DNA of 25,977 nucleotides from Candidatus Bathyarchaeia archaeon (GCA_050012255.1 JBEKHN010000025.1:1-25977), one strand, 5' to 3'; positions 5,554-24,742 are shown, counted from the first letter of the stretch. The notes: generated from the sequence alone by a model not told the origin. Translations and numbers: made by a program.

Positions 5554-5686
5554 GGCTTATTCTTTTGATGAATAATAACTTTTAGCGCCCGATTAAATGC
5601 TAGTTGCTTCGAGCCCAATGCATTGCAGTATGCGTCTATTTCTATTGAGCTTGAACTCGAACGAGTTCGGACCTCCGTGGTTCCAT

Positions 5687-5741
5687 ACCCAAATAGTGGC
5701 GGGCCCGACGGGAATTGAACCCGTGGCCTACGGATTAAGAG
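5687..5741 (-). repeat. att site: copy of the tRNA-Lys 3' half plus 10 nt of downstream sequence
   Basis: ACCCAAATAGTGGCGGGCCCGACGGGAATTGAACCCGTGGCCTACGGATTAAGAG is identical to 8445..8499 and ends at the anticodon-loop boundary. Confidence 0.95.
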
Positions 5742-6646
5742 AATGGCCTACGGCCATAAGTCTCGCGCACGTACCGAAACCAAGAACGCTAGAACCAGTC
5801 GATTTCAACGAATACGCCAAATTTCTAGCTTCTACTCACTGTCGCAAAACCGCGAAAGATTTGCTGAGCTACACAAAACAGAATTGGCACTGTCTAGCAA
5901 CAAACGATCTATCGACACTAAACGCTTTCGCACCAAACAAACGCCGACACGCATTAGCCGCGCTCGCAAATCTGAGTCGATTTCTTGGATGTTATGAACA
6001 CTATCGAAGTTTGATCAGAAACTACGGTTTGAAATGGGAATCAACAAAGGCTGAAGACTTGATCTTAGCGCGATTGAGCAAGACCGAAAGTGACGGCTCG
6101 GTTCTCGAATGGATCAGAATGGTTCAAACGAAACTACCACACTTCAGAACTTTTCTTGAATTCCACGTGATAAGCGGTTTACGATTTTGTGAAGCCTTGT
6201 CCAGCTACAACCTGATAATCGAACTTTCCGAAAGCGGAAAACTTGGCCAATACTACAACGCTGAAAAAGAAGTTTTAGAGCATTATCGATTCCGAAAGAT
6301 ATTTCTACGAAAGAACAAGAAAGCGTTCGTAAGTTTCGTTCCAAAAGGCATAATCGAAGACATAAGCCAAAGCAAAAGAATCACTTTCGACCAAATAAGA
6401 AACCAGATAAAGAGACGTGGCATTAAACCAAAATTCGCGGATTCGCGTGAATACTTCGCCACATCCATGACACGACATCTATCGTTTCCAGAAGTCGATT
6501 TTCTGCAAGGCCGAGTCTCAGCGTCGATCTTCATGCGACACTATTTCAATCCAGCGTTGATTCCAGATTTGAAAGACAGAACATTCAAAGGCGTTGACGA
6601 AATCCAAAATCAGCTACATTGCGCACAGATGGCACATATATCTTAA
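5696..6646 (+). CDS. int: SSV1-like tyrosine integrase, C-terminal (catalytic) part int(C)
   Basis: SGLRFCE, DSREYFATSM and VDFLQGR...FMRHY correspond to SSV1 Int motifs. The N-terminus VAGPTGIEPVAYG is encoded by the tRNA antisense strand; GTG at 5696. Confidence 0.9.
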   Translation: MAGPTGIEPVAYGLREWPTAISLAHVPKPRTLEPVDFNEYAKFLASTHCRKTAKDLLSYTKQNWHCLATNDLSTLNAFAPNKRRHALAALANLSRFLGCYEHYRSLIRNYGLKWESTKAEDLILARLSKTESDGSVLEWIRMVQTKLPHFRTFLEFHVISGLRFCEALSSYNLIIELSESGKLGQYYNAEKEVLEHYRFRKIFLRKNKKAFVSFVPKGIIEDISQSKRITFDQIRNQIKRRGIKPKFADSREYFATSMTRHLSFPEVDFLQGRVSASIFMRHYFNPALIPDLKDRTFKGVDEIQNQLHCAQMAHIS

Positions 6647-6812
6647 ACCCATTTTTCTTTCTTTTTTGTTTAACGCCGTTTTCAATTTCTGAAACACGGT
6701 TATCTAATTTGTGGATTTTTCCTTTTACCACTTCGCGCGAAGTTTTCTTGCCTTCATATTCCTCTTTCAACTTGACTAGAGCCTTTTCTATGCCGTGACT
6801 GACAGAACCGAG
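6585..6812 (-). pseudogene. Possible truncated ribbon-helix-helix protein remnant
   Basis: The in-frame extension upstream of the 6770 TTG reads LGSVSHGIEKALVKLKEEY (RHH second helix-like) and is cut by TAA at 6813-6815. Confidence 0.35.
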
Positions 6813-6818
6813 TTACTT

Positions 6819-7301
6819 CTATATTTCTGTAATTTCCAATTTCCCTTTAATTTTCTCTAAAGTTTCTTTCAAATAAGGTAATGCCTTTTTGTTAGTTTCG
6901 ATTGACACTCCTTTTGGAGATATTGCCCTTAGGAAATATCCATCATCCTTACTATTCGGAAAAGTTCTCTTTATATTAAAAGCCGTCATACGATGACAAG
7001 CATGATTTCTTATTTCTGCTAACTCATTCATCCATGGTTCCCAAGAGTAATTACGAAATCTCTTTCCGAATCTTAGTTCAAGAGCCATATGCATATCATT
7101 CAGACAATCTTTTATCAAATCTCTAATTCTTCCAGAATTTCCTAATCGGTCTTTGTATTCTTTTGCTTTTGCGAGTTTCACAATCTTCAAACATTTAACA
7201 TAGGCTTGAAGGTATCTTGTTTTCGGAAGCCTATCCTTGTCTTTCGGAGAAAATATCTCTTTTTCCAGAAGCAAATCATATTCACAAAAAGGACATTTCA
7301 T
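6819..7301 (-). CDS. Putative HEPN-domain protein with N-terminal CxxC
   Basis: Helical 160-aa protein with EIRNHACH (R-x4-H) motif. Confidence 0.6.
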   Translation of the reverse strand: MKCPFCEYDLLLEKEIFSPKDKDRLPKTRYLQAYVKCLKIVKLAKAKEYKDRLGNSGRIRDLIKDCLNDMHMALELRFGKRFRNYSWEPWMNELAEIRNHACHRMTAFNIKRTFPNSKDDGYFLRAISPKGVSIETNKKALPYLKETLEKIKGKLEITEI

Positions 7302-7505
7302 TTCTTCATTCTACTCCTAGTTTGTCTTCTGTTCTTGTGCAGATTTAAGATTTCTGTCTTTGAGGAAAATTACAGGAAATTACAACGATACCTCTCGCTT
7401 CAGGTTTGACAAAAAAACGTGGCTCGGATGCTGAGTGAACATTGCGGTTAATTCTTGAAAATCAGATAAGTCACTTACTAACATATATCAAAAAGGTTTG
7501 AAATC

Positions 7506-7940
7506 ATGGCTGAACTACCACTTGAACTTGGAATAGTAGCCTCATTCATTGCTGCTATTCTTACAGCTACCTTTGCTCATTTATGGACACTTAGAAGAGA
7601 GAACGATTCTAAGAAAATGAAGATTATAGGATGGCTTGAATGGTTGAAGATGTTCTTAGAAACGACCGACCAATTCCGCTATAAAGAACAGAAAATCAAT
7701 AAATTACCTTGGTGGGCCGACCATGCTATGCAAGACATAGGCGAATCTTTGTATTTGGTGACTGAAAATACACGTAGAAATTTGCTAGGTTTAATCAATG
7801 AATGTTGGCTTGAAGAACCTGTCGTCGAATATTTAGAAGGACACAACGGCAAAATTTTGGACGTATTATACGACAAGAGCAAAGTTCAAACTATGAAGAG
7901 GAACATTGATATACTTATCAAACAAATTATAGACCCGTAG
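7506..7940 (+). CDS. Membrane-anchored hypothetical protein
   Basis: Single N-terminal TM (LGIVASFIAAILTATFAHLW) followed by a soluble helical domain; AT-rich. Confidence 0.75.
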   Translation: MAELPLELGIVASFIAAILTATFAHLWTLRRENDSKKMKIIGWLEWLKMFLETTDQFRYKEQKINKLPWWADHAMQDIGESLYLVTENTRRNLLGLINECWLEEPVVEYLEGHNGKILDVLYDKSKVQTMKRNIDILIKQIIDP

Positions 7941-7981
7941 TTTTTCTGTTCTACGCTTTTGTTCCTTTTGTCTTTCTTCGT

Positions 7982-8101
7982 TTATTTCTTTCTAACTTCC
8001 TTGAGCGTGTGTTTCTTCCGCTTTCCATTGATTTCGTTGTTTGCTTCAATGACCAATTCTTTAATTTGCGCTCGCATCGACTCTTTCATTCTTTCGGCCA
8101 T
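7982..8101 (-). CDS. 39-aa basic peptide (not in ORF track)
   Basis: MAERMKESMRAQIKELVIEANNEINGKRKKHTLKEVRKK*; TTTAAA at 8125-8130 upstream; divergent from 8201. Confidence 0.4.
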   Translation of the reverse strand: MAERMKESMRAQIKELVIEANNEINGKRKKHTLKEVRKK

Positions 8102-11130: not shown

Positions 11131-13203
11131 TCACTCTCTTTGAGCCTGTTTTCTTCTGCAGACTATGACTGCCAGTAGTGTCGCTATGAAGACTAAGGGC
11201 AGAATGAGGAGTGATGGGAACTCTGGGATTATGATTATTTCAAGTTTTGAATGTTCATAGCTGAAGTAGATGATGCTCAGAGTTTCGTTCTCAAATATCG
11301 GCGCGTAAGAGACTTGAGTGCCGTTAATCGTTATGGTGTAGGGAGGAGACAGTAGACCATGAGGAATAGTCAATCTACAGAAGCCGTTAGTTTGACCTAC
11401 AGTCATGTTAGAAACACGCAGCGTGACAGTGCTGTTAGACTCGAAATATGCAAGGTCTTCTATAGTGGAGTTGGAGACAACATCAACACTATAGCCTAAT
11501 GAAGCGTTGAAGCTGGAAAACATGCCCATCAATGGATAGTTGTCTGTGTTGTTTGCATCAATGATGTACGTTAAGTCGCCTATTCCATCACTGCCTGTCT
11601 CATTCTGATGAGGACCACTGCACACATCTGTTCCGTTGTGATCGCTCCAGTAGTTTCCGCCAGAAGGGTAGCCATTGTCCCAAGTGTTAACCCATGATGC
11701 TACTGTGACAGTTCCATTTATGTTGTTGATGATATTGTTGTGGAATAAAGAATTACCCGAAGACGAGATAAGTTCGATTCCGGCGTAGTCGTTGTTTTCT
11801 ATGTTGTTTCCAACTATGCTGTTGCCCGAAGAAGAGTCAAGATAGATGCCACCCCTGTTGTTTGCCGTGGCATTGTTGCCAAGCAAAGTGTTATTGTTAG
11901 AAGAATAGCTGAGCCTAATGCCATCTTGGAAGTTTGCCGTGACGTTGTTGCCAACCAAAGTGTTGTTAGAAGAAGAGATGAGCCAGATGCCAAAATAGTA
12001 GTGCGTGCCTGCTATGTTGTTGCCAGATAAAATGTTGCTATTCGAAGAAAAGTCTGGGTAACCCTGCGAAGAGCCGAGCACAATGCCAAACATTTGACTT
12101 GATGTGACATTGTTGCCAGACAATATATTGTCAAAGGATGAGCCGAGCACAATGCCATAAGCGTTGTTTGCGACGTTGTTGCCAGTGATTTTTGAATCGT
12201 TTGTGAATGCAACCAGAATCCCCTGAGCATTGCTTGTTAGGTTCAGCCCTCGCGCAGTCACGTTGGCACAGTCAACGAGGCCCAAATATCCAATCTCTGG
12301 ATACGAATCAGCACTTACCATCATGTCTGACTGGTTCACGAAGTAGTAAACTGGCTTGCCGTTCACTAGATTTGAGGCATCAATTGAATGTAGATAGTGG
12401 CTCAAAGCATAACCATCAACTCCAAAATTGTATCTGTTACCTTCCATCACGTTCCCAGACAAAGTGTTATTGGAAGAAGCCCAGAGGCTAATGCCATAGC
12501 CGACGTTTGCACCATAGCCGTTGTTCAATGCGTTGTTGTCAGACAAAACATTGTGGTCAGAGGATGAGCCGAGCACAATGCCATCCCATCTGTTTGCCGT
12601 GACGTTGTTGCCAAATAAAACATTGTCAGAAGAATCAAAGTTGAGCGTAATGCCATCACCGTTATATGTAATGTTGTTGCCGAACAAAGTGTTCTTAGAA
12701 GAATTGCTGAGATAGACGCCATGATCACTGCCTGCGACATTGTTGCCAGACAAATTGTTGTTGAAGGAAGAGAAGGCGAGAAAAATGCCACCCCATTGGT
12801 TTGCCGTGACGTTGTTGCCAGAGAGAACATTACTAGAAGAACTGCTGAGCTGAATGCCATAGCCGAAGTTTTCTATCGTCATGTTTCCTAATGTGACGTT
12901 GACCCTTTCCGTAAGCGTTATTCCGTTCCCGTTTCTGACTCCCCTCACAGTGTAGCCTGCCCCATCAACCACAATGCTGTCCTTCTCAACAACTATGCCG
13001 TCAGCATCGCTGGTAACGTTGCCAGTTAAGGTGTAAGTGACATAGTCAAAGGTTGAAATGGGTGCACTTGGCGGGTCAATGCTCCCATCGGCTCTTATGT
13101 AAACGGTTCCACTTGCCTTGACTGGTTGAATGCTTAACGCTAGGGCTAAACATCCCATTAGAAGAAATGAAACCACTATTCCAGCAACTATTCTTCCAGA
13201 CAT
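11131..13203 (-). CDS. Surface protein with NosD/CASH parallel beta-helix repeats and PEF-CTERM-like anchor
   Basis: Signal peptide, GIxLxxSxxNxLxGNN repeats, GNYWSD, C-terminal IPEFPS-TM-RRK. ATG at 13203 preferred over GTG at 13224. Confidence 0.92.
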   Translation of the reverse strand: MSGRIVAGIVVSFLLMGCLALALSIQPVKASGTVYIRADGSIDPPSAPISTFDYVTYTLTGNVTSDADGIVVEKDSIVVDGAGYTVRGVRNGNGITLTERVNVTLGNMTIENFGYGIQLSSSSSNVLSGNNVTANQWGGIFLAFSSFNNNLSGNNVAGSDHGVYLSNSSKNTLFGNNITYNGDGITLNFDSSDNVLFGNNVTANRWDGIVLGSSSDHNVLSDNNALNNGYGANVGYGISLWASSNNTLSGNVMEGNRYNFGVDGYALSHYLHSIDASNLVNGKPVYYFVNQSDMMVSADSYPEIGYLGLVDCANVTARGLNLTSNAQGILVAFTNDSKITGNNVANNAYGIVLGSSFDNILSGNNVTSSQMFGIVLGSSQGYPDFSSNSNILSGNNIAGTHYYFGIWLISSSNNTLVGNNVTANFQDGIRLSYSSNNNTLLGNNATANNRGGIYLDSSSGNSIVGNNIENNDYAGIELISSSGNSLFHNNIINNINGTVTVASWVNTWDNGYPSGGNYWSDHNGTDVCSGPHQNETGSDGIGDLTYIIDANNTDNYPLMGMFSSFNASLGYSVDVVSNSTIEDLAYFESNSTVTLRVSNMTVGQTNGFCRLTIPHGLLSPPYTITINGTQVSYAPIFENETLSIIYFSYEHSKLEIIIIPEFPSLLILPLVFIATLLAVIVCRRKQAQRE

Positions 13204-13315
13204 TTTCTTTCTCCCTATATTCACCTTCGTTTAAAGAGGCCGACAATGTACACTTAGGTACATTAGACCTGCCAACCCTTTCCCATGAACACGCAATTTG
13301 TTGTAACACTTGGAA

Positions 13316-14152: not shown

Positions 14153-17100
14153 TTAAAGTGGTGGACGTTTTCTCTTGTAGGCTATGGCTGCAAGCAGTGT
14201 TATTATCATGAATATTGGCAGGATTAGGCTTGATGGAAATTCTTGGATTACTTGGTAGACGAGGTAGGGTTCTGTTCCGTCAAGGGTTGCGTTGTTTCCT
14301 GCATTGTCATAGGCGACTATTCTGAATCTTACTGTTGTGCCTGCTTCTTGTTGTGGTATTGTGGCTTCGTAGAGGCTGGGTGATGCGTTAAGGTTCATGG
14401 GTAAGGGCTCTTCCCATGTGGTTCCGTTGTCTAAGGAATAGTATAATGTGACATTTTTCACCTGGTTTATGATGTCGGTAACGTTTGCTGAAACCTTCAC
14501 GGACTGGCCTGGTTGCACATCGCTAGGAGGCTCGCGGGATGGTATCTCGATGATTGGTCCGTTTGAATCTAAAGCTATCGTATCTGCGTATGTCTCTGAA
14601 ATCAGTCCTGCGTTGTCTTTGATTTGGTAGTAGACTGTCTTCGCTCCTTCTTCAGAAGTTAGAGTCCAAGTTTTTGTTGTGGAAAAGTCTTCCCAGGGTT
14701 CGGTGTCCCACACGCCGCCGTTGCTGTATCTGACTTGATAGACGCCTGAGGTGGCGTCGGTTGCGGTTAGACTTAACGTCACAGAGGTTGAGGTTGTGTA
14801 AGTATCGCTATTGTTGATTATGATAGAGCCCGTGGGAGTTGTCTTGTCCAATTTGATTCCAGCCAAAATGTGATGAATCTCTTCATTGTCTGCGTTGTCC
14901 ACGCTCCAATATTCGAGCGTGTTGTTGGCTCCTTCTGTTGCGATGAGTGGTTGTCCGTCGGGGCTGACGGTTTTGGTTGGTCCATCGTTGATTTTGTAGT
15001 AGGTTTCAGCTACGCCGCTCATGTCGTCGGTGGCTGTCAGGTTGATTGTGAAATGTGTGGTGTGCCACAAACTGTCATAGTCGTGAACGGTCATTGGAGC
15101 GGTGGAGTCTAGTATGACTGTTACGGGACTTGTGATGCTATGGCTCAAATCGTCATTGTCTGTTATCGTGAGGTTTACCTGGTATGTCCCCGTTGCGGTA
15201 TAGATATGTGCTATAATGGGGTCGGTTGTAATCGTAATGTTGCCGTCGCCAAAATCCCAACGGTAGCTTTCTACGGTCCCATCTGGGTCATAGCTTGATG
15301 AAGCATTGAAAGCCACAACCGTGTTTACGGGTGGAAATTCTGGCGAGTAAGTGAAATTGGCTACTGGAGGCGCAAACACTATGATTGTGACATAAACAAG
15401 ATTACCTTCTTGGCTAGTTACTCCAAGATCATCCATCACGATAAGTGTAGCGTTATAGATGCCGTGAGAAGTATATTGATATGAAACCATAGGTGAGGTG
15501 ATCCAACTGCTGTTTGTGCCATCCCCGAAATCAAAGAAGTAATATTCTATCTGGCCATCATCGGTTGATGCAGAAGCGTCAAAAGCGACAGCTTCATTTG
15601 TAATCACTAATGTTTTATCCACTATGAACATTGCTATCGGGCGATCGTTGATTTGACTAACGGGATCAGTTAGAAAAGGTATGAAATCAAAGTCTACTCC
15701 ATCACCATTGACTGAGTTTCCTGTCCCATTCACATTTAATGATTCATGGTATGGTCCGCTTGGATCACCCCAATAGTCATTTTCGGCATTGACGGTGGCG
15801 CCATCGGTTACGTTCATCCCAAAGGAGTTACGGTAAATGTCATTGTATTGAGCCAGATTGTTTACTGTGCGAATGTAGAAGACTCCATATGTGTTGTAAG
15901 AGATGGAGTTGCGAGTAAGATTAGCTATGATGGCTCCGTCGATCCATATTCCTTTTTGACGGTTTGCCGAGACTGTGTTATCCGACAATGTTAAATCAAA
16001 CTCAGCTCCGTAATGGTCTTTGGCAACCGCGTAGACTCCATTTTCCTTATTTGATGAAATTACGTTTGAAGAAACGATCATATTGTAGATGTAGGCGTAA
16101 CTACAGGCGCCATAGGAGCTGTCATAAAAGCCCACGCTGTACATGTATATGCCGCTTCCACTATTGAAAAGAACGTTATTGGACAAGAACGTTACATTAA
16201 AAATGGAACTATAGGCACACACGGGATTGCTAATACCGTAGGCGCAAGCGGATAAGTAGATCCCATTTCCTGTATTGAATGAAGCGTTGTTAAACGAAAA
16301 CGTAACATCGTAGATGTAACCCTTGTAACTCCCGTATGTGCCGCCACCTTCGCTATAGAGGTATACGCCTTCTCCGCTATTAGAGAGAATATCGTTGGAT
16401 GAAAAAGTAACATTATAGATTAAGCTGTCGCCTTCATAACTGCAGCTGTATATGCATATTCCCTTTTTATTGTTCGATGAAATCGTGTTGTTCAAGAAAG
16501 CAACATTGTGTATGTATGTAGTCAGCGAAGCATAGTGTTCTCCGGAGCTGATCAGGTCTATGCCATCTTCACCATTGGATGAAATAGTATTATTCAAAAA
16601 CTCAACATTAAAGATGTAGCTGTACGTCCTACCGCAGCTGTTGAGGGATATGCCCTTTCCCTGATTGAACGAAACATTGTTATATGAAAAGGCAACATTG
16701 TAGATGTAACTGTCTGCATCATAGCTTACGCAGTTCAGACTCATGCCGCCATATCCATTGAAAGAGATGTCGTTTGACGAAAATGTAATATTGAAAGCCT
16801 CCCAGCTTGGAGAATAATATGGATAAAATATCCCCTCACCGCACATCACTATGCCGTATCCACTGTTGGATGAAACTGTGTTATTCGAAAACTCGACGTC
16901 GTGGACGTAGTCGTGGCTGTTGTACTCCCCAGTAACCATCCTTAGGCTAATGCCGTCTCCTTGATTGCATGAGACGTTGTTAGAAAGGAACGCAACATTG
17001 TATATAGAACAAACCGAATTGTCTCCATCGGCGCAGTTGCTTAGACTTATGCCGTTTTCGCCACTGGCTAAAATCTTGTTAAAAGAAACTGTGACATTGC

Positions 17101-17893
17101 AAATGTAACTGTAGCCGTACCCACGAGTACTTTCGCTATAACTGGATAGGATTATACCCTTTCCACCATTGGATGAGATCGTATTAGACGAAACCGTAAC
17201 ATTGGAAATGTAGCTTTCGACAGAATAATAGCTGGAGCAGTAACTGCCTAGTTTTACGCCGTCTTCGAAGTTAGATAAAATTGTGTTACCAATAATTACA
17301 ACGCCCGAGTGAGGGTCTGAGTCGCTGGCTATCCCGTTCTTGTTTTGTTTTATGTTGTTTTCCTCAATGAGTACATTACTTCTGCCTTCGATGGTTACAC
17401 CATTTTCGTAATCATTAGATATTTCGTTGTTTTTGATAATTAATTCTCCTATGCTCCTTACTATCACGCCATTTTGATTGCCAGTTATATTATTGTTCGT
17501 AAGCTTAGACATGCTCGTGTCTTGCAGAAAAGCTCCCGTTCCGAAATATTGAATCTTGGCGTTTTTGACCGTTACGTTGCTCCTATGAGATAAGTCTATT
17601 CCAGTTCCGCTTCCTGTGCCTTGAAGAGTATAGCCTGCTCCGTCAACCACAATATCGTCTCTCTCGACTACAATTGAATCATTGATGTTGTCTGTAAATG
17701 TGTACGTAACATTGTCAATACTGGTTATGGGTGCTGTTGGTGGGTCTATGCTTCCTTCCGCCTTTATGTATATGGTTCCGCTTGCCTTAACCACTGGAAC
17801 ATTCAACACCACGCTAAAAACAGCCGTCAAAAACAGCATAACCCAAACACCAGAAACCACACCTCTCCTAAACCTACCCAAAACCTTCCCCAC
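14153..17893 (-). CDS. Large surface protein: parallel beta-helix, two PKD domains, Ig-like domains, PEF-CTERM-like anchor
   Basis: Signal peptide, N.ISSN...GI repeats, FDFGDG and WDFGDG PKD motifs, QEFPS-TM-KRKR. Confidence 0.93.
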   Translation of the reverse strand: MGKVLGRFRRGVVSGVWVMLFLTAVFSVVLNVPVVKASGTIYIKAEGSIDPPTAPITSIDNVTYTFTDNINDSIVVERDDIVVDGAGYTLQGTGSGTGIDLSHRSNVTVKNAKIQYFGTGAFLQDTSMSKLTNNNITGNQNGVIVRSIGELIIKNNEISNDYENGVTIEGRSNVLIEENNIKQNKNGIASDSDPHSGVVIIGNTILSNFEDGVKLGSYCSSYYSVESYISNVTVSSNTISSNGGKGIILSSYSESTRGYGYSYICNVTVSFNKILASGENGISLSNCADGDNSVCSIYNVAFLSNNVSCNQGDGISLRMVTGEYNSHDYVHDVEFSNNTVSSNSGYGIVMCGEGIFYPYYSPSWEAFNITFSSNDISFNGYGGMSLNCVSYDADSYIYNVAFSYNNVSFNQGKGISLNSCGRTYSYIFNVEFLNNTISSNGEDGIDLISSGEHYASLTTYIHNVAFLNNTISSNNKKGICIYSCSYEGDSLIYNVTFSSNDILSNSGEGVYLYSEGGGTYGSYKGYIYDVTFSFNNASFNTGNGIYLSACAYGISNPVCAYSSIFNVTFLSNNVLFNSGSGIYMYSVGFYDSSYGACSYAYIYNMIVSSNVISSNKENGVYAVAKDHYGAEFDLTLSDNTVSANRQKGIWIDGAIIANLTRNSISYNTYGVFYIRTVNNLAQYNDIYRNSFGMNVTDGATVNAENDYWGDPSGPYHESLNVNGTGNSVNGDGVDFDFIPFLTDPVSQINDRPIAMFIVDKTLVITNEAVAFDASASTDDGQIEYYFFDFGDGTNSSWITSPMVSYQYTSHGIYNATLIVMDDLGVTSQEGNLVYVTIIVFAPPVANFTYSPEFPPVNTVVAFNASSSYDPDGTVESYRWDFGDGNITITTDPIIAHIYTATGTYQVNLTITDNDDLSHSITSPVTVILDSTAPMTVHDYDSLWHTTHFTINLTATDDMSGVAETYYKINDGPTKTVSPDGQPLIATEGANNTLEYWSVDNADNEEIHHILAGIKLDKTTPTGSIIINNSDTYTTSTSVTLSLTATDATSGVYQVRYSNGGVWDTEPWEDFSTTKTWTLTSEEGAKTVYYQIKDNAGLISETYADTIALDSNGPIIEIPSREPPSDVQPGQSVKVSANVTDIINQVKNVTLYYSLDNGTTWEEPLPMNLNASPSLYEATIPQQEAGTTVRFRIVAYDNAGNNATLDGTEPYLVYQVIQEFPSSLILPIFMIITLLAAIAYKRKRPPL

Positions 17894-19457: not shown

Positions 19458-19979
19458 TTGAGTGAAGAAGGGGGAGACTGGACCGGAGTGTGCGTAAATA
19501 TCTTGGTAGCAATCGGATTTGCCTTCTTAGTAGTGTGGGCTGAAGAAAATCCCTTTTTGGCCACGGTGATGGTGACGACTTTTCTGGGCTTCATGATGGT
19601 TGCGTTGCCCCTATTCATATTCACTAAGAGCGTGGCGTTAAGGAGAGATATGGAGGCAAAGCAGAAAATGAAGTGGGGCATAGTCGTTGGTTACTTCATC
19701 GGCCTCTTCACGTTGATTTCAAGCATCCTTTTCAAATTTGTTACTGGCCTCTTTGCTGTTTTTGGTGTTTGTGCGTTTGCTGGTACTGCGGTGATCGCTG
19801 TTGCACGCTACGTTTACAAAGATTGGTTGAAGGAGAACGAGCGGAAGAGAAGGAAAGCCTTGGCTTGGGAGAGGAAGGATCAGTTGGAACAGTTGAAGGA
19901 ACAACTGGACAGAGGCGTTATCTCGCAAGAGGAGTATGAGCAGCAGAAGAAGAAGCTGCTTGACAAATCTGAGACATGA
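19458..19979 (+). CDS. 4-TM membrane protein with C-terminal SHOCT domain
   Basis: Four hydrophobic segments, then LEQLKEQLDRGVISQEEYEQQKKKLL; AGGAGG SD upstream. Confidence 0.85.
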   Translation: MSEEGGDWTGVCVNILVAIGFAFLVVWAEENPFLATVMVTTFLGFMMVALPLFIFTKSVALRRDMEAKQKMKWGIVVGYFIGLFTLISSILFKFVTGLFAVFGVCAFAGTAVIAVARYVYKDWLKENERKRRKALAWERKDQLEQLKEQLDRGVISQEEYEQQKKKLLDKSET

Positions 19980-20129: not shown

Positions 20130-21230
20130 CTAAGGGTTTGTAGTTTCCTTGCCCAGTCCTTCTCCGCAGTTTCCGCAGAATTTCATTCCAACAGGATTTT
20201 TCGTGCCGCATTTTGGGCAGGTGATCTCTGTTCCTGTTTGCGTAGCAAGAGGAGCTCCGCAGCTTCCGCAGAACTTCATTCCAGCATTGTTCTCAGCCTT
20301 GCACTTGGGGCAGATTACCTTTGGCGCCGGGGCTAGAGCTGTACCGCAGGTTCCGCAGAACTTGGTTGCAACAGGATTTTTGGCTCCGCAGTTTTGACAG
20401 ATAACCACTTGCTGGGCTTGCGCACCCTGCGCCTGTTGCATCTGCTGAGCCATCAAGAGAGGCATTGTCAAACCCATCCCAGCGCCGACGCCGGCCGCAG
20501 CTGCTCCCCCACCTTCGGATCCTTTGAGTTCGGTCGCCGTTTCTTTCATGTACTGCATCACCATGGCTTGCGCTCCGACGCCGGATGCGAACCTTCTGGC
20601 TTCTTCTGGAATCTTGACGCCTTCAAAGAGGCAGTCTATGACTTTTAGACCGACTCTTGCCGCTTCGTCGCCGATCTTTAATGTCACCTTGTCTGTGGTG
20701 GCATCAACGTTCTTGACCAGAGTGAAGATGTCGAAGCCGCCGAATTCGTTTATGATTCGCTCGTTTATGAAACCTCTGATATAGTTTTCAACGTCTCTTG
20801 ACGTGCTGGAACCTTTGTTGCCGAAGAATTCCACGACGAAGAGTTTTGGATCTTCGATCTTGTAGAGTAAGTAGCCGAAGAAGCCGAGTTCTGCCTGATA
20901 TTTTATGTCTCCACTGGGTGCCGAGTACGCTGTGCCTCCGAAGTTGCCTCTGAACTGGCTGTTGCAGATGAACACAACTTCGCAGTCAAAGATATCGCCT
21001 ATAATCCCTAAGGCTTTAAGAGCACCGGTTAGAAGCGGAATATTGTTGCTGGTTATGGTGTGTCTTCCTGGACCAAAGACGTCATAGGCTTTTCCGTCTC
21101 GGAAGAATACGCCCCACTGATTTTCCTTGACTATCACTTGGCTCCCATACTTGAGTGAGAGTTTCGGGAACCTGTAGGCTATATCATCTGGTCCTGCATA
21201 ATCCCAAGCGACTTTTTCAATTATGGGCAT
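20130..21230 (-). CDS. SPFH (band-7, YdjI-like) protein with three C-terminal zinc-ribbon repeats
   Basis: GSQVIVKENQWGVFFRDGKAYDVFGPGRHT, Gly/Ala-rich linker, three CxxC...KFCGxCG repeats. Confidence 0.92.
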   Translation of the reverse strand: MPIIEKVAWDYAGPDDIAYRFPKLSLKYGSQVIVKENQWGVFFRDGKAYDVFGPGRHTITSNNIPLLTGALKALGIIGDIFDCEVVFICNSQFRGNFGGTAYSAPSGDIKYQAELGFFGYLLYKIEDPKLFVVEFFGNKGSSTSRDVENYIRGFINERIINEFGGFDIFTLVKNVDATTDKVTLKIGDEAARVGLKVIDCLFEGVKIPEEARRFASGVGAQAMVMQYMKETATELKGSEGGGAAAAGVGAGMGLTMPLLMAQQMQQAQGAQAQQVVICQNCGAKNPVATKFCGTCGTALAPAPKVICPKCKAENNAGMKFCGSCGAPLATQTGTEITCPKCGTKNPVGMKFCGNCGEGLGKETTNP

Positions 21231-21235
21231 TTAAT

Positions 21236-21763
21236 CTACGCCTCCGTTGGTCTGAATTGTTGTTCCCTTTCATCCCATTTAGACTCGAAACTGAGTATTA
21301 AGGATTTGATGTTCCTGGCTTTGGTCGATGCTTCGGTCCATCTTTCTGCTTGGCTATCGTCATAGAGTTCGCTAACTGCCTTTGTCATTGCTTCGATATC
21401 TTCGCTTAGAGTCTTGTCGTAGTTGAATACGCGCGCCAGCTCGGTTTCTCTTATGGCGCCTTTTCGGTCCATCAGTCCTGCGTAGCCGTAGTCGGCATGG
21501 TTGACTTTTTCCGCGACCCTGTCAATGATTTGTACCACTTTTTTGAAGTCGTCGGAAGCCTTTCCTATGTTCAATGCGGCAAGGTAGATTTCTTCCCATC
21601 TGTGCCGCAACTTTTTGAAGTCGTCGTAATAGAGGTCTCTTAATTTCTTGTCCAGCTCTCGCAGATCTTCCTTGTTTGCGTATCCCGCACCGAACAGGTT
21701 TTGGGCTTTAGCAAGTATTCCCTGCTTCTCCTTCACTCTTTCTATTGTTTCTCGTTCCGACAA
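21236..21763 (-). CDS. Conserved all-helical hypothetical protein
   Basis: GYANKEDLRELDKKLR...ADYGYAGLMD...IRETEL; 5-10 nt gaps to both neighbours. Confidence 0.85.
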   Translation of the reverse strand: MSERETIERVKEKQGILAKAQNLFGAGYANKEDLRELDKKLRDLYYDDFKKLRHRWEEIYLAALNIGKASDDFKKVVQIIDRVAEKVNHADYGYAGLMDRKGAIRETELARVFNYDKTLSEDIEAMTKAVSELYDDSQAERWTEASTKARNIKSLILSFESKWDEREQQFRPTEA

Positions 21764-21773
21764 TTTTCTAGCA

Positions 21774-23048
21774 CTATCCTATTTTGAAAAGTGGTCTTCC
21801 GCCACCTAGAATTTTGCCCTCGCAACCGTCCACGGCAATTACATAGTTTTCTCCTTTTAGCGTGTACTGCACGAACCACACAGGTGCATGCACAAGCTCT
21901 CCTTCTCCAAGAGCAACTGTTACGCTGCAAGTTTCAAGCGAGTCCACTTTTCCACTCGCTATCAGTCTTTCTTTGGCTTCAACCTCCGACTTTATCATCA
22001 TCTTGGCTTCTTCCTCGTTCAATTCTATGTTGAGGAATTCAGCGTCCTGTGGAAGCCTGCCCACATCAAAAGGTATCTTCCTCGCCGCAGGGACATCGTA
22101 AAAGTTGATTTCGCTTATCAGTGTCCGTCTGGCCAGTGTTGGCCAAATGTAGCTGTTTGAGAACGAATAGGAGACGCTCGTTGGCGTTTTGTCTTTTTGC
22201 TGGCTTCCGGCGTATGCCTCGGCTCCCGCGAGAACCAGCTTGCCAAATTTCTTCAGTTTGCTTGATCTTTTGTCCGTGATCGCCTCTTGGGCTTGGTGGA
22301 TTTCCCCCATGAATCCTGTCCCTGTCCTACCGCTGATGAAGGTGCTTGTATTTGCTGGGCAAACCCAAAAGGGAATATAGCGAAGTTTCGCGTTTGCGAT
22401 TGACGCGTCCTTAGAAACTCCTACTCTTAAGAGACCTTTGTCCATGTATTTCTGGGCGGCTTCAACTGCCTGCTGAGCGAATAAATGATTCTCCAGCATA
22501 CTATGTCTCTTTATTTCTTCTCCAGTGCCGATGGTCATCGTGAATCCGCAGTATCTGCATGTGATTATCAGGTCTTCTTGGGTCGCGCTCAGTGGACCGC
22601 CACACTTGCTGCAGCTAGTGGGTGGCGGTTGCATAGGTTTTGGTACTGGTTGAGCAACGGGCTGAACTGGAGTTGCCTGCAACGGGACCGTTGGCGCTCC
22701 AGGCGCCACTGGTATCACTGGGGATGGCTGAGGCGAAACCATTTCCGTGTGACTCTTGAATACTTGAGGATTCTTGGCCGATGCCAGAATGTTATCCTCA
22801 ACGATGAACCAAGCGTCTTGGTTGTTTTCCATTATTCCAGAAACCAAGAAATCGTCTGGAAGGCCTTTCACGCTTACAGTCTCCTTTGCTCCGAACATGC
22901 CGGGCCTTTTGTATTCGATCAGAAAACTCGTCTCGCCTGTCAGTAGGCGTTCAATTTTGTATCCTCGCTGCTCCATGGAGGATTTAAGTTTCTCTTGAAG
23001 AGCCTTAATGTCGACTCCGAGTCCCTGGTAACGCGCCACAATCATCAT
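21774..23048 (-). CDS. Zn-ribbon protein (YdjG-like) with Pro-rich linker
   Basis: CSKCGG...TCRYCG, LRYIPFWV, LVHAPVWFVQY, VDGCEGKILGG; ATG at 23048. Confidence 0.85.
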   Translation of the reverse strand: MMIVARYQGLGVDIKALQEKLKSSMEQRGYKIERLLTGETSFLIEYKRPGMFGAKETVSVKGLPDDFLVSGIMENNQDAWFIVEDNILASAKNPQVFKSHTEMVSPQPSPVIPVAPGAPTVPLQATPVQPVAQPVPKPMQPPPTSCSKCGGPLSATQEDLIITCRYCGFTMTIGTGEEIKRHSMLENHLFAQQAVEAAQKYMDKGLLRVGVSKDASIANAKLRYIPFWVCPANTSTFISGRTGTGFMGEIHQAQEAITDKRSSKLKKFGKLVLAGAEAYAGSQQKDKTPTSVSYSFSNSYIWPTLARRTLISEINFYDVPAARKIPFDVGRLPQDAEFLNIELNEEEAKMMIKSEVEAKERLIASGKVDSLETCSVTVALGEGELVHAPVWFVQYTLKGENYVIAVDGCEGKILGGGRPLFKIG

Positions 23049-23058
23049 CCCGGCGCGT

Positions 23059-23637
23059 TTAGAATTTGCGAACCCCTTGTGCCCCTTCTCGTGCTTCCTC
23101 ACTGTATTTGCGGTTCCAAACTTCTTCCAAGTTATGGCCGCATTTTGGACAGGCCTTAATAGGTTCTGACAGCGGTTGCGTTATGAAGCCGCAGCCGCCA
23201 TATTGCCTGGGACATTCGATTACGTATGGAAAGTTTATAGCGGGCTTCACTTCATGCGTTAAGTCGGGTCTGCCCTGAATTGTCGCAACCCCTTTGATTT
23301 TCACTTCCAGCTCTGTGAACGGGTCAGGTTTCGAAAACTGCGGGATGTCTATCTGAAAGGGCTGCTCGTAGTGCTGCCCCTGCGACAACTTGACAGGAGC
23401 TCCTACAGTGATCTTTCTTCCTTCTAATGATGAGCTACCGCTGAAACTGCTGAACCCTTGCTTCCATTTCACCTTTTTGTTGCCGCCGAATTCCAAGCGA
23501 AACTCGTCCACTGCAATGTTTTCTTGCGGATCTAGCACTATTTGTCCAGTCAGTTTATCTGTACTCTCGAACGCCACTTCGCTGAGCTTCAACTCTATTT
23601 TTGCTTTTGGCGCCGAGAACTTCTTGAAAAAACCCGT
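23059..23637 (-). CDS. Arrestin-N/Spo0M-like beta-sandwich protein with C-terminal zinc ribbon
   Basis: KIELKL...DKLTGQIVL...FRLEFGG...YEQPFQIDIP...IKGVATIQGRPDL, then CPRQYGGCG...CPKCG. The start codon is unusual (see findings). Confidence 0.75.
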   Translation of the reverse strand, partial: TGFFKKFSAPKAKIELKLSEVAFESTDKLTGQIVLDPQENIAVDEFRLEFGGNKKVKWKQGFSSFSGSSSLEGRKITVGAPVKLSQGQHYEQPFQIDIPQFSKPDPFTELEVKIKGVATIQGRPDLTHEVKPAINFPYVIECPRQYGGCGFITQPLSEPIKACPKCGHNLEEVWNRKYSEEAREGAQGVRKF

Positions 23638-23677
23638 GGTCTTCTCTCCTTCCTTAGGATGTTTGAACAGAACGCAC

Positions 23678-23705
23678 ATTTAAGAAGCACGCACGATACG
23701 TGAGT
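23678..23705 (-). promoter_or_regulatory. Operator ACGCACG-ATA-CGTGAGT plus adjacent TATA-like box (copy 3)
   Basis: 27/28 identical to 13316..13343; lies between the SPFH operon and the 7TM/wHTH pair. Confidence 0.75.
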
Positions 23706-23762
23706 CTGATAGAGCGTATTGCATGCGAAAACGAGATAAGTCACAAAGCTCAATCTAGAAAC

Positions 23763-24458
23763 ATGAGCAATGTGGCCTTGGTTCTGGCTGAGCTTGTTTC
23801 TGCGGCGCTGAGCTTCACTCTGGTGAGGTTTATGGTGAAGCCCTATCTATACACTGGTGAAGGTCGATATGTTGGGTTGCCGTTTGGATTCGCTTTTCTG
23901 GGCGCATCATATCTTTTCATGGGGCTCACCTTCTTTATGGAGAGCCATCCTTTTGTTGAAGAAATGAAATGGCTACAGCTTTTCACAGAAGTTTATGCGT
24001 TCGCTTTTCTTGCCATAACATACTACTTTTCGCAGAAAGAGTTTCAACGTGGTACGCGCTTGTGGTGGCAGTTTGTTTTTTCAGGGCTGATTGTCGGATT
24101 GATCGCTACATACTTTGTCATATTCGAACCTTATTCTCCCATGTTCACCTTGCCCAACTATGATGTAGCAAATAGATACATAAGCGTCTTTGACATTATT
24201 TTTGCTTCATATGTTTCTGTTTACACATTTAGGAGTCACGCGTTGAACCCAGACCCCAAGACGTTGTGGGCACCGCTCGGTTACCTTTTGATTGCCTTCG
24301 GTGAATACTCTTCTCTGATATGGTCGTGGGATTCAAGCTTTTCAGCCCTTGTAGGCGCATACACTATTCGGTTGACAGGCTTGTTTGTCTTTTTGCTAGT
24401 ATCCTATGGAGTTTTCAGTGCATCGCAAGCACCGCAGACAGAAAAGGGTCTCAAATGA
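23763..24458 (+). CDS. 7-TM membrane protein (putative sensor)
   Basis: Seven hydrophobic helices in 231 aa; TM1-3 and TM5-7 look internally repeated. Confidence 0.85.
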   Translation: MSNVALVLAELVSAALSFTLVRFMVKPYLYTGEGRYVGLPFGFAFLGASYLFMGLTFFMESHPFVEEMKWLQLFTEVYAFAFLAITYYFSQKEFQRGTRLWWQFVFSGLIVGLIATYFVIFEPYSPMFTLPNYDVANRYISVFDIIFASYVSVYTFRSHALNPDPKTLWAPLGYLLIAFGEYSSLIWSWDSSFSALVGAYTIRLTGLFVFLLVSYGVFSASQAPQTEKGLK

Positions 24459-24742
24459 AAAGGCTTGCTCGGAGAGACAAGATGAAAATTTATCGTGACG
24501 TACTCTCCGCCATTCAGAGTGAGACAGGCAATGGAGAAATCGTCTTCACTCGTGTTCAGCAAAGAACAAATGTTCCCTTTGACCGTCTCAAGACATACAT
24601 AACAGAACTCGTAGCATTAGGCCTAATCCAAAGCGAATGCTCGCCACAACTGACGGAAAAGGGCGATCAATATTTAGCTGAATATGAGAAAGTGTTAGAT
24701 TTTATGAAACGCATGGGATTGGCATATCGGGAAAAGAGTTGA
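24455..24742 (+). CDS. Winged-helix transcriptional regulator (COG3432-like)
   Basis: RRDKMKIYRDVL...TRVQQRTNVPFDRLKTYITELVALGLI...LTEKG; ATGA overlap with the 7TM gene. Confidence 0.88.
   Translation: MKRLARRDKMKIYRDVLSAIQSETGNGEIVFTRVQQRTNVPFDRLKTYITELVALGLIQSECSPQLTEKGDQYLAEYEKVLDFMKRMGLAYREKS

What the first reader, a model, noticed from the sequence alone, without database searches (positions are those of the whole stretch)
20130..24742. 7TM + wHTH pair divergent from an arrestin-like / Zn-ribbon / helical / SPFH operon
Seen: four tightly spaced minus-strand genes share a roughly 125-bp control region with a translationally coupled (ATGA) 7TM protein and wHTH. Known: SPFH and Zn-ribbon partners resemble Bacillus YdjI/YdjG of the pspA envelope-stress operon, and arrestin folds act as adaptors for membrane proteins in eukaryotes. 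Inference: a kinase-free membrane signalling or remodelling module (7TM sensor, transcription factor, arrestin adaptor, SPFH scaffold). I do not know of it being described in archaea. Nearby SHOCT, DUF2085 and PH-like genes fit the theme.
Basis: partly seen in the sequence, partly recalled or inferred. Interest (0 to 1): 0.72.

Follow-up and report, generated by a model that had tools for sequence, protein, structure and literature searches.

The report
Archaeal SPFH operon with arrestin-fold partner
Four tightly packed genes of a Bathyarchaeial genome encode a flotillin-like membrane-scaffold protein with three partners, one of them arrestin-shaped, while the neighbouring membrane-sensor and regulator genes are a separate unit that lies beside them only in this lineage.

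Summary
The genes are there as described: four minus-strand genes with 5-10-bp spacers, and a divergent 7TM gene that overlaps a winged-helix gene by ATGA.

Supported:
- The 23059 protein has an arrestin-N/Spo0M-type fold (AF2 pLDDT 88; best Foldseek hits Spo0M, TXNIP-N, ARRDC3-N, VPS26).
- The SPFH protein is Band_7_1 with C-terminal zinc ribbons, the YdjI/SamI architecture.

Not supported: the 7TM/wHTH pair as part of the module.
- 38 metagenome relatives of the operon have at least 900 bp upstream. Only 2 carry the pair: the window's own contig and a 93% relative.
- In 29 other 7TM loci, 26 keep the wHTH and none has an operon gene within the 1.5-kb flanks.

New here: the 175-aa helical gene and the SPFH gene form a dyad found in Archaea and Bacteria.
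- SPFH lies directly downstream in 46 of 49 and 71 of 80 loci.
- Archaeal versions add proteins with a Zn ribbon plus an alpha/beta C-domain. Several Thermoproteota lineages add arrestin-like proteins, fused to that C-domain in one relative.

Likely function (inferred): a PspA-independent sub-membrane SPFH scaffold with adaptor proteins. It is a new variant of a known kind, of moderate interest.

The parts
20130..21230 (-). Cytosolic SPFH protein (366 aa): Band_7_1 domain, then a Gly/Ala-rich hydrophobic segment (about residues 240-262), then three C-terminal zinc ribbons. This is the YdjI/SamI-type architecture.
   Evidence: Band_7_1 82.8 bits (cut-off 24), DZR 76.2 bits, Zn_Ribbon_1 in 3 stretches; no N-terminal TM segment; tail segment 244-260, hydropathy 1.45.
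21236..21763 (-). 175-aa all-helical protein of an uncharacterised family. It is the near-obligate upstream partner of Band_7_1 SPFH genes in Archaea and Bacteria. Conserved motif YGY[AST]GFFD.
   Evidence: no Pfam or PDB relative by sequence; weak NF047596 (LIMLP_15305), 29.5 bits against a cut-off of 210, over the full length; 213 representatives at E <= 0.001. Atlas model pTM 0.83. SPFH directly downstream in 46 of 49 and 71 of 80 loci.
21774..23051 (-). 425-aa protein: well-modelled alpha/beta N-domain (1-105), Pro-rich linker, Zn ribbon (Cys 147/150/165/168), and an alpha/beta C-domain that defines a large archaeal family.
   Evidence: pLDDT about 90 for residues 1-100, 62.9 overall; weak N-domain hits to Flpp3, RnlA and BamC-N, best E 1.4e-3; 111 of 301 Bathyarchaeia genomes match; no Pfam family on the C-domain; structural neighbours in Thermoplasmatota, Nitrososphaerota and a Bacillota TFIIB-type-ZnR cluster.
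23059..23679 (-). 206-aa protein: one arrestin-N/Spo0M-like beta-sandwich lobe (about 25-150), a Zn ribbon (invariant Cys 163/177/180) and a C-terminal helix.
   Evidence: pLDDT 88.0, pTM 0.74. Spo0M 5cl2 E 1.6e-8, TXNIP-N 2.0e-8, ARRDC3-N 2.7e-8, VPS26 and beta-arrestins. Arrestin_N 21.0 bits, below the cut-off of 24.9; alignment.
23680..23762 (.). 83-bp divergent intergenic region between the operon and the 7TM gene.
   Evidence: sequence; no inverted repeat of 8 bp or more.
23763..24458 (+). 7TM membrane protein (231 aa) of no known family; first gene of an independent 7TM-wHTH cassette.
   Evidence: seven hydrophobic peaks; no family; 21 of 301 class genomes match, up to 5 matches per genome.
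24455..24742 (+). 95-aa winged-helix protein (HTH_45), overlapping the 7TM stop by ATGA; second gene of the cassette.
   Evidence: HTH_45 39.4 bits (cut-off 25.5). ATGA overlap; directly follows the 7TM gene in 26 of 29 other loci.
19458..19979 (+). Three-TM protein with a C-terminal SHOCT domain, convergent with the SPFH gene. A possible accessory, kept only in the window's close lineage.
   Evidence: SHOCT 41.9 bits; three TM segments; present in L102 and L103 only; a bPH_2+SHOCT gene lies beside the arrestin-like gene in L023.

Best explanation
Genes 20130-23679 (minus strand) form one conserved operon built round an ancient two-gene core: a 175-aa helical protein and, directly after it, a cytosolic Band_7_1 SPFH protein with a Gly/Ala-rich hydrophobic segment and C-terminal zinc ribbons (the YdjI/SamI type). 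Bathyarchaeia add proteins with a Zn ribbon and a characteristic alpha/beta C-domain; here that is the 425-aa protein, which also has an extra alpha/beta N-domain. This clade adds a single-lobe arrestin-N/Spo0M-like protein that also carries a Zn ribbon. Most likely mechanism (inferred, not shown): the SPFH protein oligomerises under the membrane and attaches through its hydrophobic tail. The helical protein is its constitutive assembly or regulatory subunit. The Zn-ribbon-bearing arrestin-like and 425-aa proteins act as adaptors that bring or hold client proteins at the scaffold. This parallels SamG/SamH/SamI in Bacillus subtilis, but without PspA. The 7TM and wHTH genes are a separate sensor-regulator cassette. 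It landed beside the operon in this lineage, and at most it regulates the operon locally.
For: Shown:
- Folds and domains.
- Operon conservation in 61 metagenome loci at 62-100% identity: ZnR425 gene in 51 of 56, helical gene in 30 of 34, SPFH gene in 25 of 26.
- The helical family is present in 158 of 301 Thermoproteota genomes sampled.
- The SPFH gene lies directly downstream of the helical gene in 46 of 49 phylum loci and in 71 of 80 genome-contig loci. By record title these include Asgard, Methanocella, Chloroflexota, Armatimonadota, Acidobacteriota, Bacillota and Planctomycetota. Partners sampled from a Bacillota, an Armatimonadetes and an uncultured-archaeon record are Band_7_1 plus DZR.
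- The C-domain family accompanies the dyad in 18 of 49 and 35 of 80 loci.
- Arrestin-like genes recur beside the dyad in other families: L023, L194, L204, L205. In L246 one lies about 5 kb upstream. In L019 the lobe is fused to the ZnR+C-domain.
- None of the four proteins has a TM segment at the usual threshold.
- G000 (98.5% complete) has no PspA_IM30 match.
- For the 7TM/wHTH cassette.
Against: No physical interaction, localisation or expression datum exists for any of these proteins. Arrestin-like+ZnR homologues often stand alone: 10 of 13 loci from the relatives search had no SPFH gene within about 8 kb. Two close relatives of the operon (G018 at 76% and G059 at 67% identity of the 425-aa protein) lack the arrestin-like gene. 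So the arrestin-like partner is dispensable. The similarity of the C-domain to YdjG rests on one Atlas structural row (TM 0.68/0.58) and on a published description, not on an alignment made here. The C-domain model is of low confidence. The operon has no TPM (YdjH-like) protein and no integral membrane anchor. A local regulatory role of the wHTH on the shared 83-bp region is not excluded.
Confidence: 0.6

Rival explanations
1. One reading: the 7TM protein senses a signal, the wHTH transduces it, and the arrestin-like protein and SPFH scaffold act on the 7TM protein, forming one kinase-free signalling module.
For: The genes are divergent, with only 83 bp between them. The arrangement is kept in the 93% relative L103. 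Arrestins bind 7TM receptors in eukaryotes, and Alvarez 2008 speculated that Spo0M could partner prokaryotic 7TM proteins (PMC2515105, passages read).
Against: Only 2 of 38 operon relatives with upstream sequence carry the pair, and one of the two is the window's own contig. In 29 other 7TM loci none has an operon gene within 1.5 kb, while 26 keep the wHTH. The cassette's commonest divergent neighbour is a secreted protein of about 440 aa (13 of 29). 21 of 301 class genomes have the 7TM against 111 of 301 with the C-domain family. In G000 the usual upstream gene of the operon lies on another contig, which points to a rearrangement.
Confidence: 0.06
2. Local regulation only: the wHTH, controlled by its 7TM partner, represses or activates the divergent SPFH operon in this lineage, as it would whichever gene the cassette lies beside.
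For: The cassette typically sits divergent from another gene (13 of 29 loci). The intergenic region here is short and shared.
Against: The 83-bp region has no inverted repeat. No operator motif was defined here and no expression data exist.
Confidence: 0.2
3. An ESCRT-associated or vesicle-sorting module like the 'Meth_adaptin' loci of Makarova et al. 2024. Those loci combine an SPFH+coiled-coil+ZnR protein with adaptin-appendage-like (Ig plus TBP fold) proteins that carry Zn ribbons.
For: The parts list is similar: an SPFH+ZnR protein, a beta-sandwich+ZnR protein, and a protein with an alpha/beta N-domain whose weak fold matches are Flpp3, RnlA and BamC, plus a Zn ribbon. That these matches share a TBP/helix-grip-like fold is my recollection, not a call result. 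The Meth_adaptin description comes from PMC10936438, passages read.
Against: No Vps4 or ESCRT-III gene lies in the operon or in the other window genes scanned. The genome has no PspA and only a sub-threshold Snf7 match on another contig (22.1 bits against 27.3). The N-domain fold matches are weak, and no homology to adaptin appendage was tested. The dyad also occurs in bacteria.
Confidence: 0.08
4. An anti-phage defence or abortive-infection system built on a membrane-perturbing SPFH protein.
For: Multi-gene cassette with Zn ribbons and variable accessory genes. An integrase and a low-GC stretch lie elsewhere in the window.
Against: None of the six proteins matches a PADLOC family at a meaningful level (best E 0.0028). 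The dyad is usually single-copy and present in about half of the phylum's genomes sampled, which looks like a housekeeping gene rather than a defence island. The integrase is about 13 kb away.
Confidence: 0.04

Closest known systems
Bacillus subtilis SamGHI (YdjGHI) of the pspA-ydjGHI operon
   Same: The SPFH protein belongs to the same Pfam family (Band_7_1). It has no N-terminal TM segment, and a low-complexity stretch and zinc ribbon(s) follow the domain (PMC8581546 and PMC11237479, passages read). A Zn-ribbon protein with an alpha/beta domain is encoded in the same operon. The Atlas aligns that domain with a Bacillota 'TFIIB-type zinc ribbon' cluster, and YdjG carries Pfam TF_Zn_Ribbon (bioRxiv 2021.02.15.431232, passage read).
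   Different: The genome has no pspA. The operon has no TPM-domain YdjH and no TM segment in the Zn-ribbon protein. It has two partners that the passages I read on the Bacillus operon do not mention: the helical protein and the arrestin-like protein.
Spo0M / arrestin clan (Pfam CL0135)
   Same: The beta-sandwich of the 23059 protein matches Spo0M, TXNIP-N, ARRDC3-N and VPS26 at Foldseek E 1e-8 to 1e-5. Relatives L246 and L204 pass the Arrestin_N cut-off. NCBI names one homologue 'sporulation protein'.
   Different: The protein has one lobe only, about 125 residues, followed by a Zn ribbon and a helix; arrestins and VPS26 have two lobes. The window protein itself scores below the Pfam cut-offs. 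Spo0M has not been linked to SPFH proteins in the papers found.
Meth_adaptin ESCRT loci (Makarova et al. 2024, mBio)
   Same: Archaeal loci that combine an SPFH protein bearing a Zn ribbon with beta-sandwich/TBP-fold adaptor-like proteins bearing Zn ribbons.
   Different: No Vps4, ESCRT-III, GOLD or ProX gene here. Homology of the adaptor-like proteins was not tested. That paper's supplementary tables and figures could not be read.
Stomatin-NfeD and HflK/C-FtsH pairs
   Same: An SPFH scaffold gene paired with a dedicated partner gene in a two-gene unit (general knowledge, recalled).
   Different: The partner here is a small soluble helical protein of no known family, not an NfeD protease/OB-fold protein or FtsH. 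The SPFH protein lacks the N-terminal membrane anchor.

Membership tests
Arrestin clan (Arrestin_N / Spo0M / Vps26) | Arrestin-type beta-sandwich fold | tested here: met
   AF2 model pLDDT 88.0. The best Foldseek PDB hits are Spo0M 5cl2, TXNIP-N, ARRDC3-N and VPS26; 126 matches at E <= 0.001.
Arrestin clan (Arrestin_N / Spo0M / Vps26) | Sequence score above the Pfam gathering cut-off | tested here: not met
   Window protein: Arrestin_N 21.0 bits against 24.9; Spo0M 14.7 against 23. Relatives pass: L246 33.9 bits, L204 30.4 bits. PF00339 is precomputed for some of the 120 homologues listed.
Arrestin clan (Arrestin_N / Spo0M / Vps26) | Two tandem lobes (N and C) as in arrestins and VPS26 | tested here: not met
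   Strands span residues 26-149 only, followed by a Zn ribbon and helix 184-201.
Arrestin clan (Arrestin_N / Spo0M / Vps26) | Binding of membrane-protein tails / adaptor function | not testable with these tools
   Needs biochemistry.
Band_7_1 SPFH, YdjI/SamI type | Band_7_1 domain above the cut-off | tested here: met
   82.8 bits against 24.
Band_7_1 SPFH, YdjI/SamI type | No N-terminal membrane anchor; low-complexity stretch and zinc ribbon at the C-terminus | tested here: met
   Description of YdjI from PMC8581546 (passage read).
Band_7_1 SPFH, YdjI/SamI type | Operon or genome partner PspA | tested here: not met
   No PF04012 match in G000, which is 98.5% complete.
SamGHI-like system | YdjG-like partner (Zn ribbons + NTF2-like domain + TM segment) | tested here: inconclusive
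   Atlas structure row 7: Bacillota TFIIB-type-ZnR cluster, TM 0.68/0.58 over 233 residues. The 425-aa protein has no TM segment. No direct alignment to YdjG was possible.
SamGHI-like system | YdjH-like TPM-domain membrane partner | tested here: not met
   No TPM match in any operon protein.
Meth_adaptin-type ESCRT locus | Vps4 and ESCRT-III genes in the locus | tested here: not met
   None among the window proteins scanned. Snf7 scores only 22.1 bits, on contig C18.
Meth_adaptin-type ESCRT locus | Adaptin-appendage (Ig + TBP) homology of the partner proteins | not tested
   Only weak fold matches of the N-domain to Flpp3, RnlA and BamC. The VIA-align libraries were not available.
HTH_45 winged-helix regulators | HTH_45 domain above the cut-off | tested here: met
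   39.4 bits against 25.5.

The most novel reading that the evidence does not exclude
The helical-SPFH dyad is an ancient sub-membrane sorting scaffold common to Archaea and Bacteria. In Thermoproteota it has recruited Zn-ribbon-tagged adaptor proteins, including a single-lobe arrestin and a protein with an alpha/beta N-domain. That would make it a prokaryotic forerunner of arrestin/Vps26-type cargo adaptors working on SPFH (flotillin-like) membrane domains, and kin to the adaptin-like SPFH loci linked to archaeal ESCRT systems.
Probability: 0.12. Interest if true: 0.8.

Novelty: new variant of a known kind. Interest (0 to 1): 0.45.

Why it matters
Cytosolic Band_7_1 SPFH proteins are known from one experimental system, B. 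subtilis SamI/YdjI. There they link membrane stress, PspA and development.

This analysis shows that in about half of the Thermoproteota genomes sampled, and in many bacterial phyla, such a protein is paired with a small helical protein that has no Pfam family and no solved relative. That pairing gives a concrete, testable candidate for the core partner of this SPFH class.

It also shows a recurrent genomic link, and in one case a gene fusion, between prokaryotic arrestin-fold proteins and SPFH scaffolds. I found no paper describing this link. Spo0M-type proteins have had almost no functional context, so the link gives them one.

Finally, the analysis removes an attractive but unsupported idea, an archaeal 7TM-arrestin signalling module.

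Tried and rejected
Complex prediction of the SPFH protein with the helical protein (alignments A5 and A3): the verdict was 'no answer' (score 0.19, mark 0.32). This is no evidence for or against binding.

RNA evidence: no RNA run was listed for 20130-24742. This is not evidence on expression, and read laying was not used.

Fold of the 425-aa protein: Foldseek against PDB gave no match at E <= 0.001, and the weak hits concern only the N-domain. The C-domain model is of low confidence. Profile searches against PDB sequences found only Zn-ribbon matches (A2 and A4) or coiled-coil noise (A3).

Pfam found no family for any of the 49 helical-family members, nor on the C-domain of the 25 aligned members.

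Defence hypothesis: PADLOC gave nothing meaningful.

Operator search: the 83-bp intergenic region has no inverted repeat. No motif comparison across cassettes was made.

The GAIN match of the helical protein (21.9 bits, below the cut-off) was set aside as helical noise, because only 1 of 49 members shows it.

I considered whether the helical protein is a PspA/ESCRT-III relative. No named family appeared among its Atlas neighbours and no direct comparison was possible, so this was left open rather than claimed.

The supplementary tables and figures of Makarova 2024 and Ravi 2024 were not read. They may list Bathyarchaeial SPFH loci or the helical family.

Full report
OBSERVATION. One search lists four minus-strand ORFs:
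- 20130-21230 (366 aa);
- 21236-21763 (175 aa);
- 21774-23102 (442 aa from GTG, or 425 aa from the ATG at 23051);
- 23059-23679 (206 aa).

The spacers are 5, 10 and 7 bp. On the plus strand a membrane-protein ORF ends at 24458. Its ATG at 23763 gives 231 aa with seven hydrophobic peaks. A winged-helix ORF starts at the ATG at 24455, overlapping that stop as ATGA. The divergent intergenic stretch is 83 bp (23680-23762).

Pfam gives:
- Band_7_1 (82.8 bits) plus DZR/Zn_Ribbon_1 for the 366-aa protein;
- HTH_45 (39.4 bits) for the small plus-strand protein;
- SHOCT and DUF2085 for the neighbouring genes;
- only sub-threshold Arrestin_N (21.0 bits) and Spo0M matches for the 206-aa protein.

The 'PH-like' gene at 25042-25485 matches nothing.

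THE FOUR OPERON PROTEINS.

(a) The 206-aa protein. I folded it with a 26-row alignment (A1). The model has pLDDT 88.0 and pTM 0.74: a beta-sandwich over residues 26-149, then a Zn ribbon and a C-terminal helix. The best Foldseek hits against PDB are B. subtilis Spo0M (5cl2, E 1.6e-8), TXNIP/VDUP-1 N-domain, ARRDC3 N-lobe, VPS26 and beta-arrestins, with 126 matches at E <= 0.001. It is therefore arrestin-fold, but a single lobe. Relatives from other families pass Pfam's Arrestin_N cut-off (L246 33.9 bits, L204 30.4 bits).

(b) The 425-aa protein. Its model is mediocre (pLDDT 62.9), except for the N-domain at 1-105, which is near 90. Foldseek finds only weak N-domain matches to Flpp3, RnlA and BamC-N, best E 1.4e-3. 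After a Pro-rich linker come a Zn ribbon and an alpha/beta C-domain. No Pfam model covers that C-domain in any of 25 aligned family members. The ESM Atlas aligns residues 160-442 of the 442-aa form with archaeal clusters from Thermoplasmatota, Bathyarchaeota and Nitrososphaerota (TM 0.61-0.82). It also aligns them with a 343-aa Bacillota cluster named 'TFIIB-type zinc ribbon-containing protein', of which 59% carry PF08271 (TM 0.68 by query). YdjG of B. subtilis is described as carrying TF_Zn_Ribbon (bioRxiv 2021.02.15.431232, passage read) and as two Zn ribbons plus an NTF2-like domain and a TM segment (PMC11237479, passage read). The YdjG likeness is thus a lead, not a demonstrated homology.

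(c) The 175-aa protein. It is all-helical (Atlas model pTM 0.83). It has no Pfam family: 49 members were scanned and none gave a consistent match. It has no PDB relative by profile. It has only a weak full-length match to NCBIfam NF047596, 'LIMLP_15305 family' (29.5 bits against a cut-off of 210). An exhaustive HMMER search found 213 representatives at E <= 0.001, nearly all of 160-190 aa.

(d) The SPFH protein. It has no N-terminal TM segment. After the Band_7_1 domain come a Gly/Ala-rich hydrophobic stretch (244-260) and three zinc ribbons. [quoted passage not shown]

IS THE 7TM/wHTH PAIR PART OF IT? No.

- A metagenome scan with the arrestin-like protein gave 61 loci at 62-100% identity. 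Where enough sequence follows, the 425-aa gene comes next in 51 of 56 loci, the helical gene in 30 of 34 and the SPFH gene in 25 of 26.
- 38 of those loci have at least 900 bp upstream. Only L102 (100% identical, the window's own contig) and L103 (93%) carry the 7TM/wHTH pair. In 19 loci the upstream gene is a co-directional 230-aa protein of no family, and in 5 more the largest nearby ORF is an SMC-like ATPase.
- In G000 that 230-aa gene lies on another contig, C12. This points to a rearrangement in the window's lineage.
- Conversely, the 7TM protein matches 21 of 301 Bathyarchaeia genomes sampled, with up to 5 matches per genome.
- In the 29 loci outside the window, 26 have the wHTH gene directly after the 7TM gene. 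None has an operon gene within the 1.5-kb flanks.
- 13 of the 29 have a secreted protein of about 440 aa as divergent neighbour, and 7-8 have a PQQ-like beta-propeller gene downstream.

The pair is therefore a self-contained cassette with other usual neighbours.

WHAT THE OPERON BELONGS TO.

Within the class:
- The 425-aa protein matches 111 of 301 Bathyarchaeia genomes sampled. Most matches are paralogues of 250-360 aa that consist of Zn ribbon(s) plus the C-domain.
- Wider flanks show modules of the form ZnR250 - helical - (ZnR410) - SPFH in several genera. One lies on contig C3 of G000 itself. G000 has three Band_7_1 matches in all.

Across the phylum:
- A profile of the helical family matches 158 of 301 Thermoproteota genomes sampled, mostly once per genome.
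- I examined 49 loci other than the window's: the tool's 29 best, plus 20 that I picked to spread over families.
- The SPFH gene lies directly downstream on the same strand in 46 of them and somewhere in the locus in all 49. A C-domain gene is present in 18 and an arrestin-like gene in 3.

Across GTDB species genomes:
- By record title the 80 include Bathyarchaeia, other Thermoproteota, Brockarchaeota, Nitrososphaeria, Jordarchaeia and Freyarchaeota (Asgard) and Methanocella. They also include bacteria labelled Anaerolineae/Chloroflexota, Armatimonadetes, Blastocatellia, Clostridia/Bacillota, Coatesbacteria and Phycisphaerae.
- The SPFH gene is directly downstream in 71 of 80 loci and within the locus in 73.
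- Of the 7 loci without it, at least one lies at a contig end. Two that I examined (L239, L268) encode helical proteins with an N-terminal Zn ribbon fused on.
- Partners sampled from a Bacillota, an Armatimonadetes and an uncultured-archaeon record are Band_7_1 plus DZR.
- C-domain genes appear in 35 of the 80 loci. All of these bear archaeal titles except one labelled Bacteroidales (L279), which looks Bathyarchaeial.

The core is therefore a helical-SPFH dyad shared by both domains. The ZnR+C-domain proteins are an archaeal addition.

THE ARRESTIN LINK. It is real but not universal.
- Arrestin-like+ZnR proteins matched 13 of 61 close relatives, counting G000. In 10 of the 13 loci fetched there was no SPFH gene within about 8 kb.
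- Two close relatives of the operon, G018 and G059, lack the arrestin-like gene.
- The link nevertheless recurs independently. It is the four-gene operon of this clade.
- In G054 (L023) the arrestin-like gene is divergent from the dyad. Arrestin-like genes also lie in the dyad loci of G186, G355 and G354 (L194, L204, L205). In L246 one lies about 5 kb upstream.
- In G058 (L019) a 466-aa protein has the arrestin lobe replacing the N-domain of the ZnR+C-domain protein, directly upstream of the helical and SPFH genes. That fusion protein scores Arrestin_N at E 7.7e-6 and Spo0M at 1.3e-5.
- A fusion of this kind is classical evidence that two proteins act together.

One further regularity: every component carries, somewhere in its family, a Zn ribbon of the same Pfam types (Zn_Ribbon_1/DZR). 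In most relatives a small Gly/Ala-hydrophobic + DZR protein is also encoded convergently after the SPFH gene. I infer that the Zn ribbons are the common assembly or membrane-proximal tag. This was not tested.

MECHANISM (inferred). By analogy with SamGHI, I propose four steps:
- the SPFH protein oligomerises beneath the membrane, attached through its hydrophobic tail and/or partner proteins;
- the helical protein is its constitutive subunit or regulator;
- the ZnR+C-domain protein plays the SamG-like recruiting role;
- the arrestin-like lobe offers a client-binding surface.

The system must work without PspA. G000 (98.5% complete) has no PF04012 match, and its only Snf7 match is sub-threshold and on another contig. 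None of the four proteins has a TM helix, so any membrane anchor must be the Gly/Ala-rich segment or a protein encoded elsewhere. The convergent SHOCT three-TM gene (19458-19979) is a candidate in this lineage only. [quoted passage not shown]

COMPARISON WITH WHAT IS KNOWN. The closest experimental system is SamGHI/YdjGHI (PMC8581546, passages; PMC13713150, abstract only). The closest comparative-genomic descriptions are two:
- the band-7+ZnR / YdjG / TPM operon of Firmicutes in Ravi et al. 2024 (PMC11237479, passages);
- the Meth_adaptin ESCRT loci of Makarova et al. 2024, with an SPFH+coiled-coil+ZnR protein and adaptin-appendage-like proteins bearing Zn ribbons (PMC10936438, passages).

Archaeal Spo0M-type arrestin-clan proteins were noted by Alvarez 2008 (PMC2515105, passages). 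Full-text searches with these term sets found no paper describing the helical partner family, an arrestin-SPFH operon, or this Bathyarchaeial locus:
- YdjI/YdjG/SPFH;
- Spo0M/arrestin/SPFH/archaea;
- PspA/Band-7/SHOCT/Toastrack;
- COG4260/Band_7_1/PF13421;
- Bathyarchaeota/SPFH/stomatin/flotillin/arrestin.

VERDICT. The sequence observation is confirmed. Its integrating hypothesis is not: the 7TM-wHTH cassette is a bystander, or at most a local regulator. What remains is a new variant of a known kind, a YdjI/SamI-type SPFH system. It has a previously undescribed, near-universal helical partner and, in Thermoproteota, Zn-ribbon adaptors that include an arrestin-fold protein. Function is inferred from context only. 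Interest is moderate (0.45).

Noticed in passing
G000 contig C3, locus L065:7632-10396: The same genome holds a second, paralogous module: a 250-aa ZnR+C-domain protein, a helical protein and a Band_7_1+ZnR protein, at 25-34% identity to the window's genes.
   Followed up: partly
L058:11066-11380, L059:7251-7496 and most of L104-L157: In most relatives a small gene of 80-104 aa lies convergent just after the SPFH gene. It encodes a Gly/Ala-rich hydrophobic segment plus a double zinc ribbon and resembles the SPFH protein's own tail (44-51% identity). The window has the SHOCT three-TM gene in that place instead.
   Followed up: partly
L073-L101 (7TM-wHTH cassettes in other genomes): The cassette is multi-copy in some genomes (up to 5 matches), and one locus holds two tandem copies (L086). 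In 13 of 29 loci it lies divergent from a gene for a secreted protein of about 440 aa with no family. In 7-8 loci a PQQ-like beta-propeller/Ig gene follows the wHTH.
   Followed up: partly
window 23635-23679: Homologues of the arrestin-like protein start about 14 codons further in (MGFFKKF). The window has ACG at that codon, preceded by a purine-rich stretch, and uses an ATG upstream. L103 shares this extension.
   Followed up: no
L019:3659-5059 (G058): A 466-aa fusion of an arrestin-N lobe with the Zn ribbon and C-domain of the 425-aa family lies directly upstream of the helical and SPFH genes.
   Followed up: yes
L239:5359-6516 and L268:5746-6522 (bacterial records): Helical-family proteins with an N-terminal zinc ribbon fused on. 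These loci have no adjacent SPFH gene.
   Followed up: partly
window 5597-6646 and 6001-8000: An archaeal phage-type integrase gene lies beside a low-GC stretch (GC 0.36-0.39 against about 0.45-0.48 around it), with two ORFs of no family. This may be an integrated element.
   Followed up: no
window 11131-13224 and 14153-17893: Two large surface proteins with NosD/right-handed beta-helix repeats. The larger (1246 aa) also has PKD domains and a C-terminal hydrophobic anchor.
   Followed up: no
L104:1346-2038 and G000 contig C12:39053-39733: A 230-aa protein of no Pfam family precedes the operon, co-directionally, in 19 of 38 metagenome relatives, next to an SMC-like ATPase gene. In the window's genome it lies on a different contig.
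   Followed up: partly
L064:8187-9188 (G000 contig C9) and L066-L070: Paralogues of 330-360 aa in the C-domain family have two Zn ribbons and a Gly-rich hydrophobic insert inside the C-domain. L068 has a C-terminal TM segment. These forms come closest to the published description of YdjG.
   Followed up: partly
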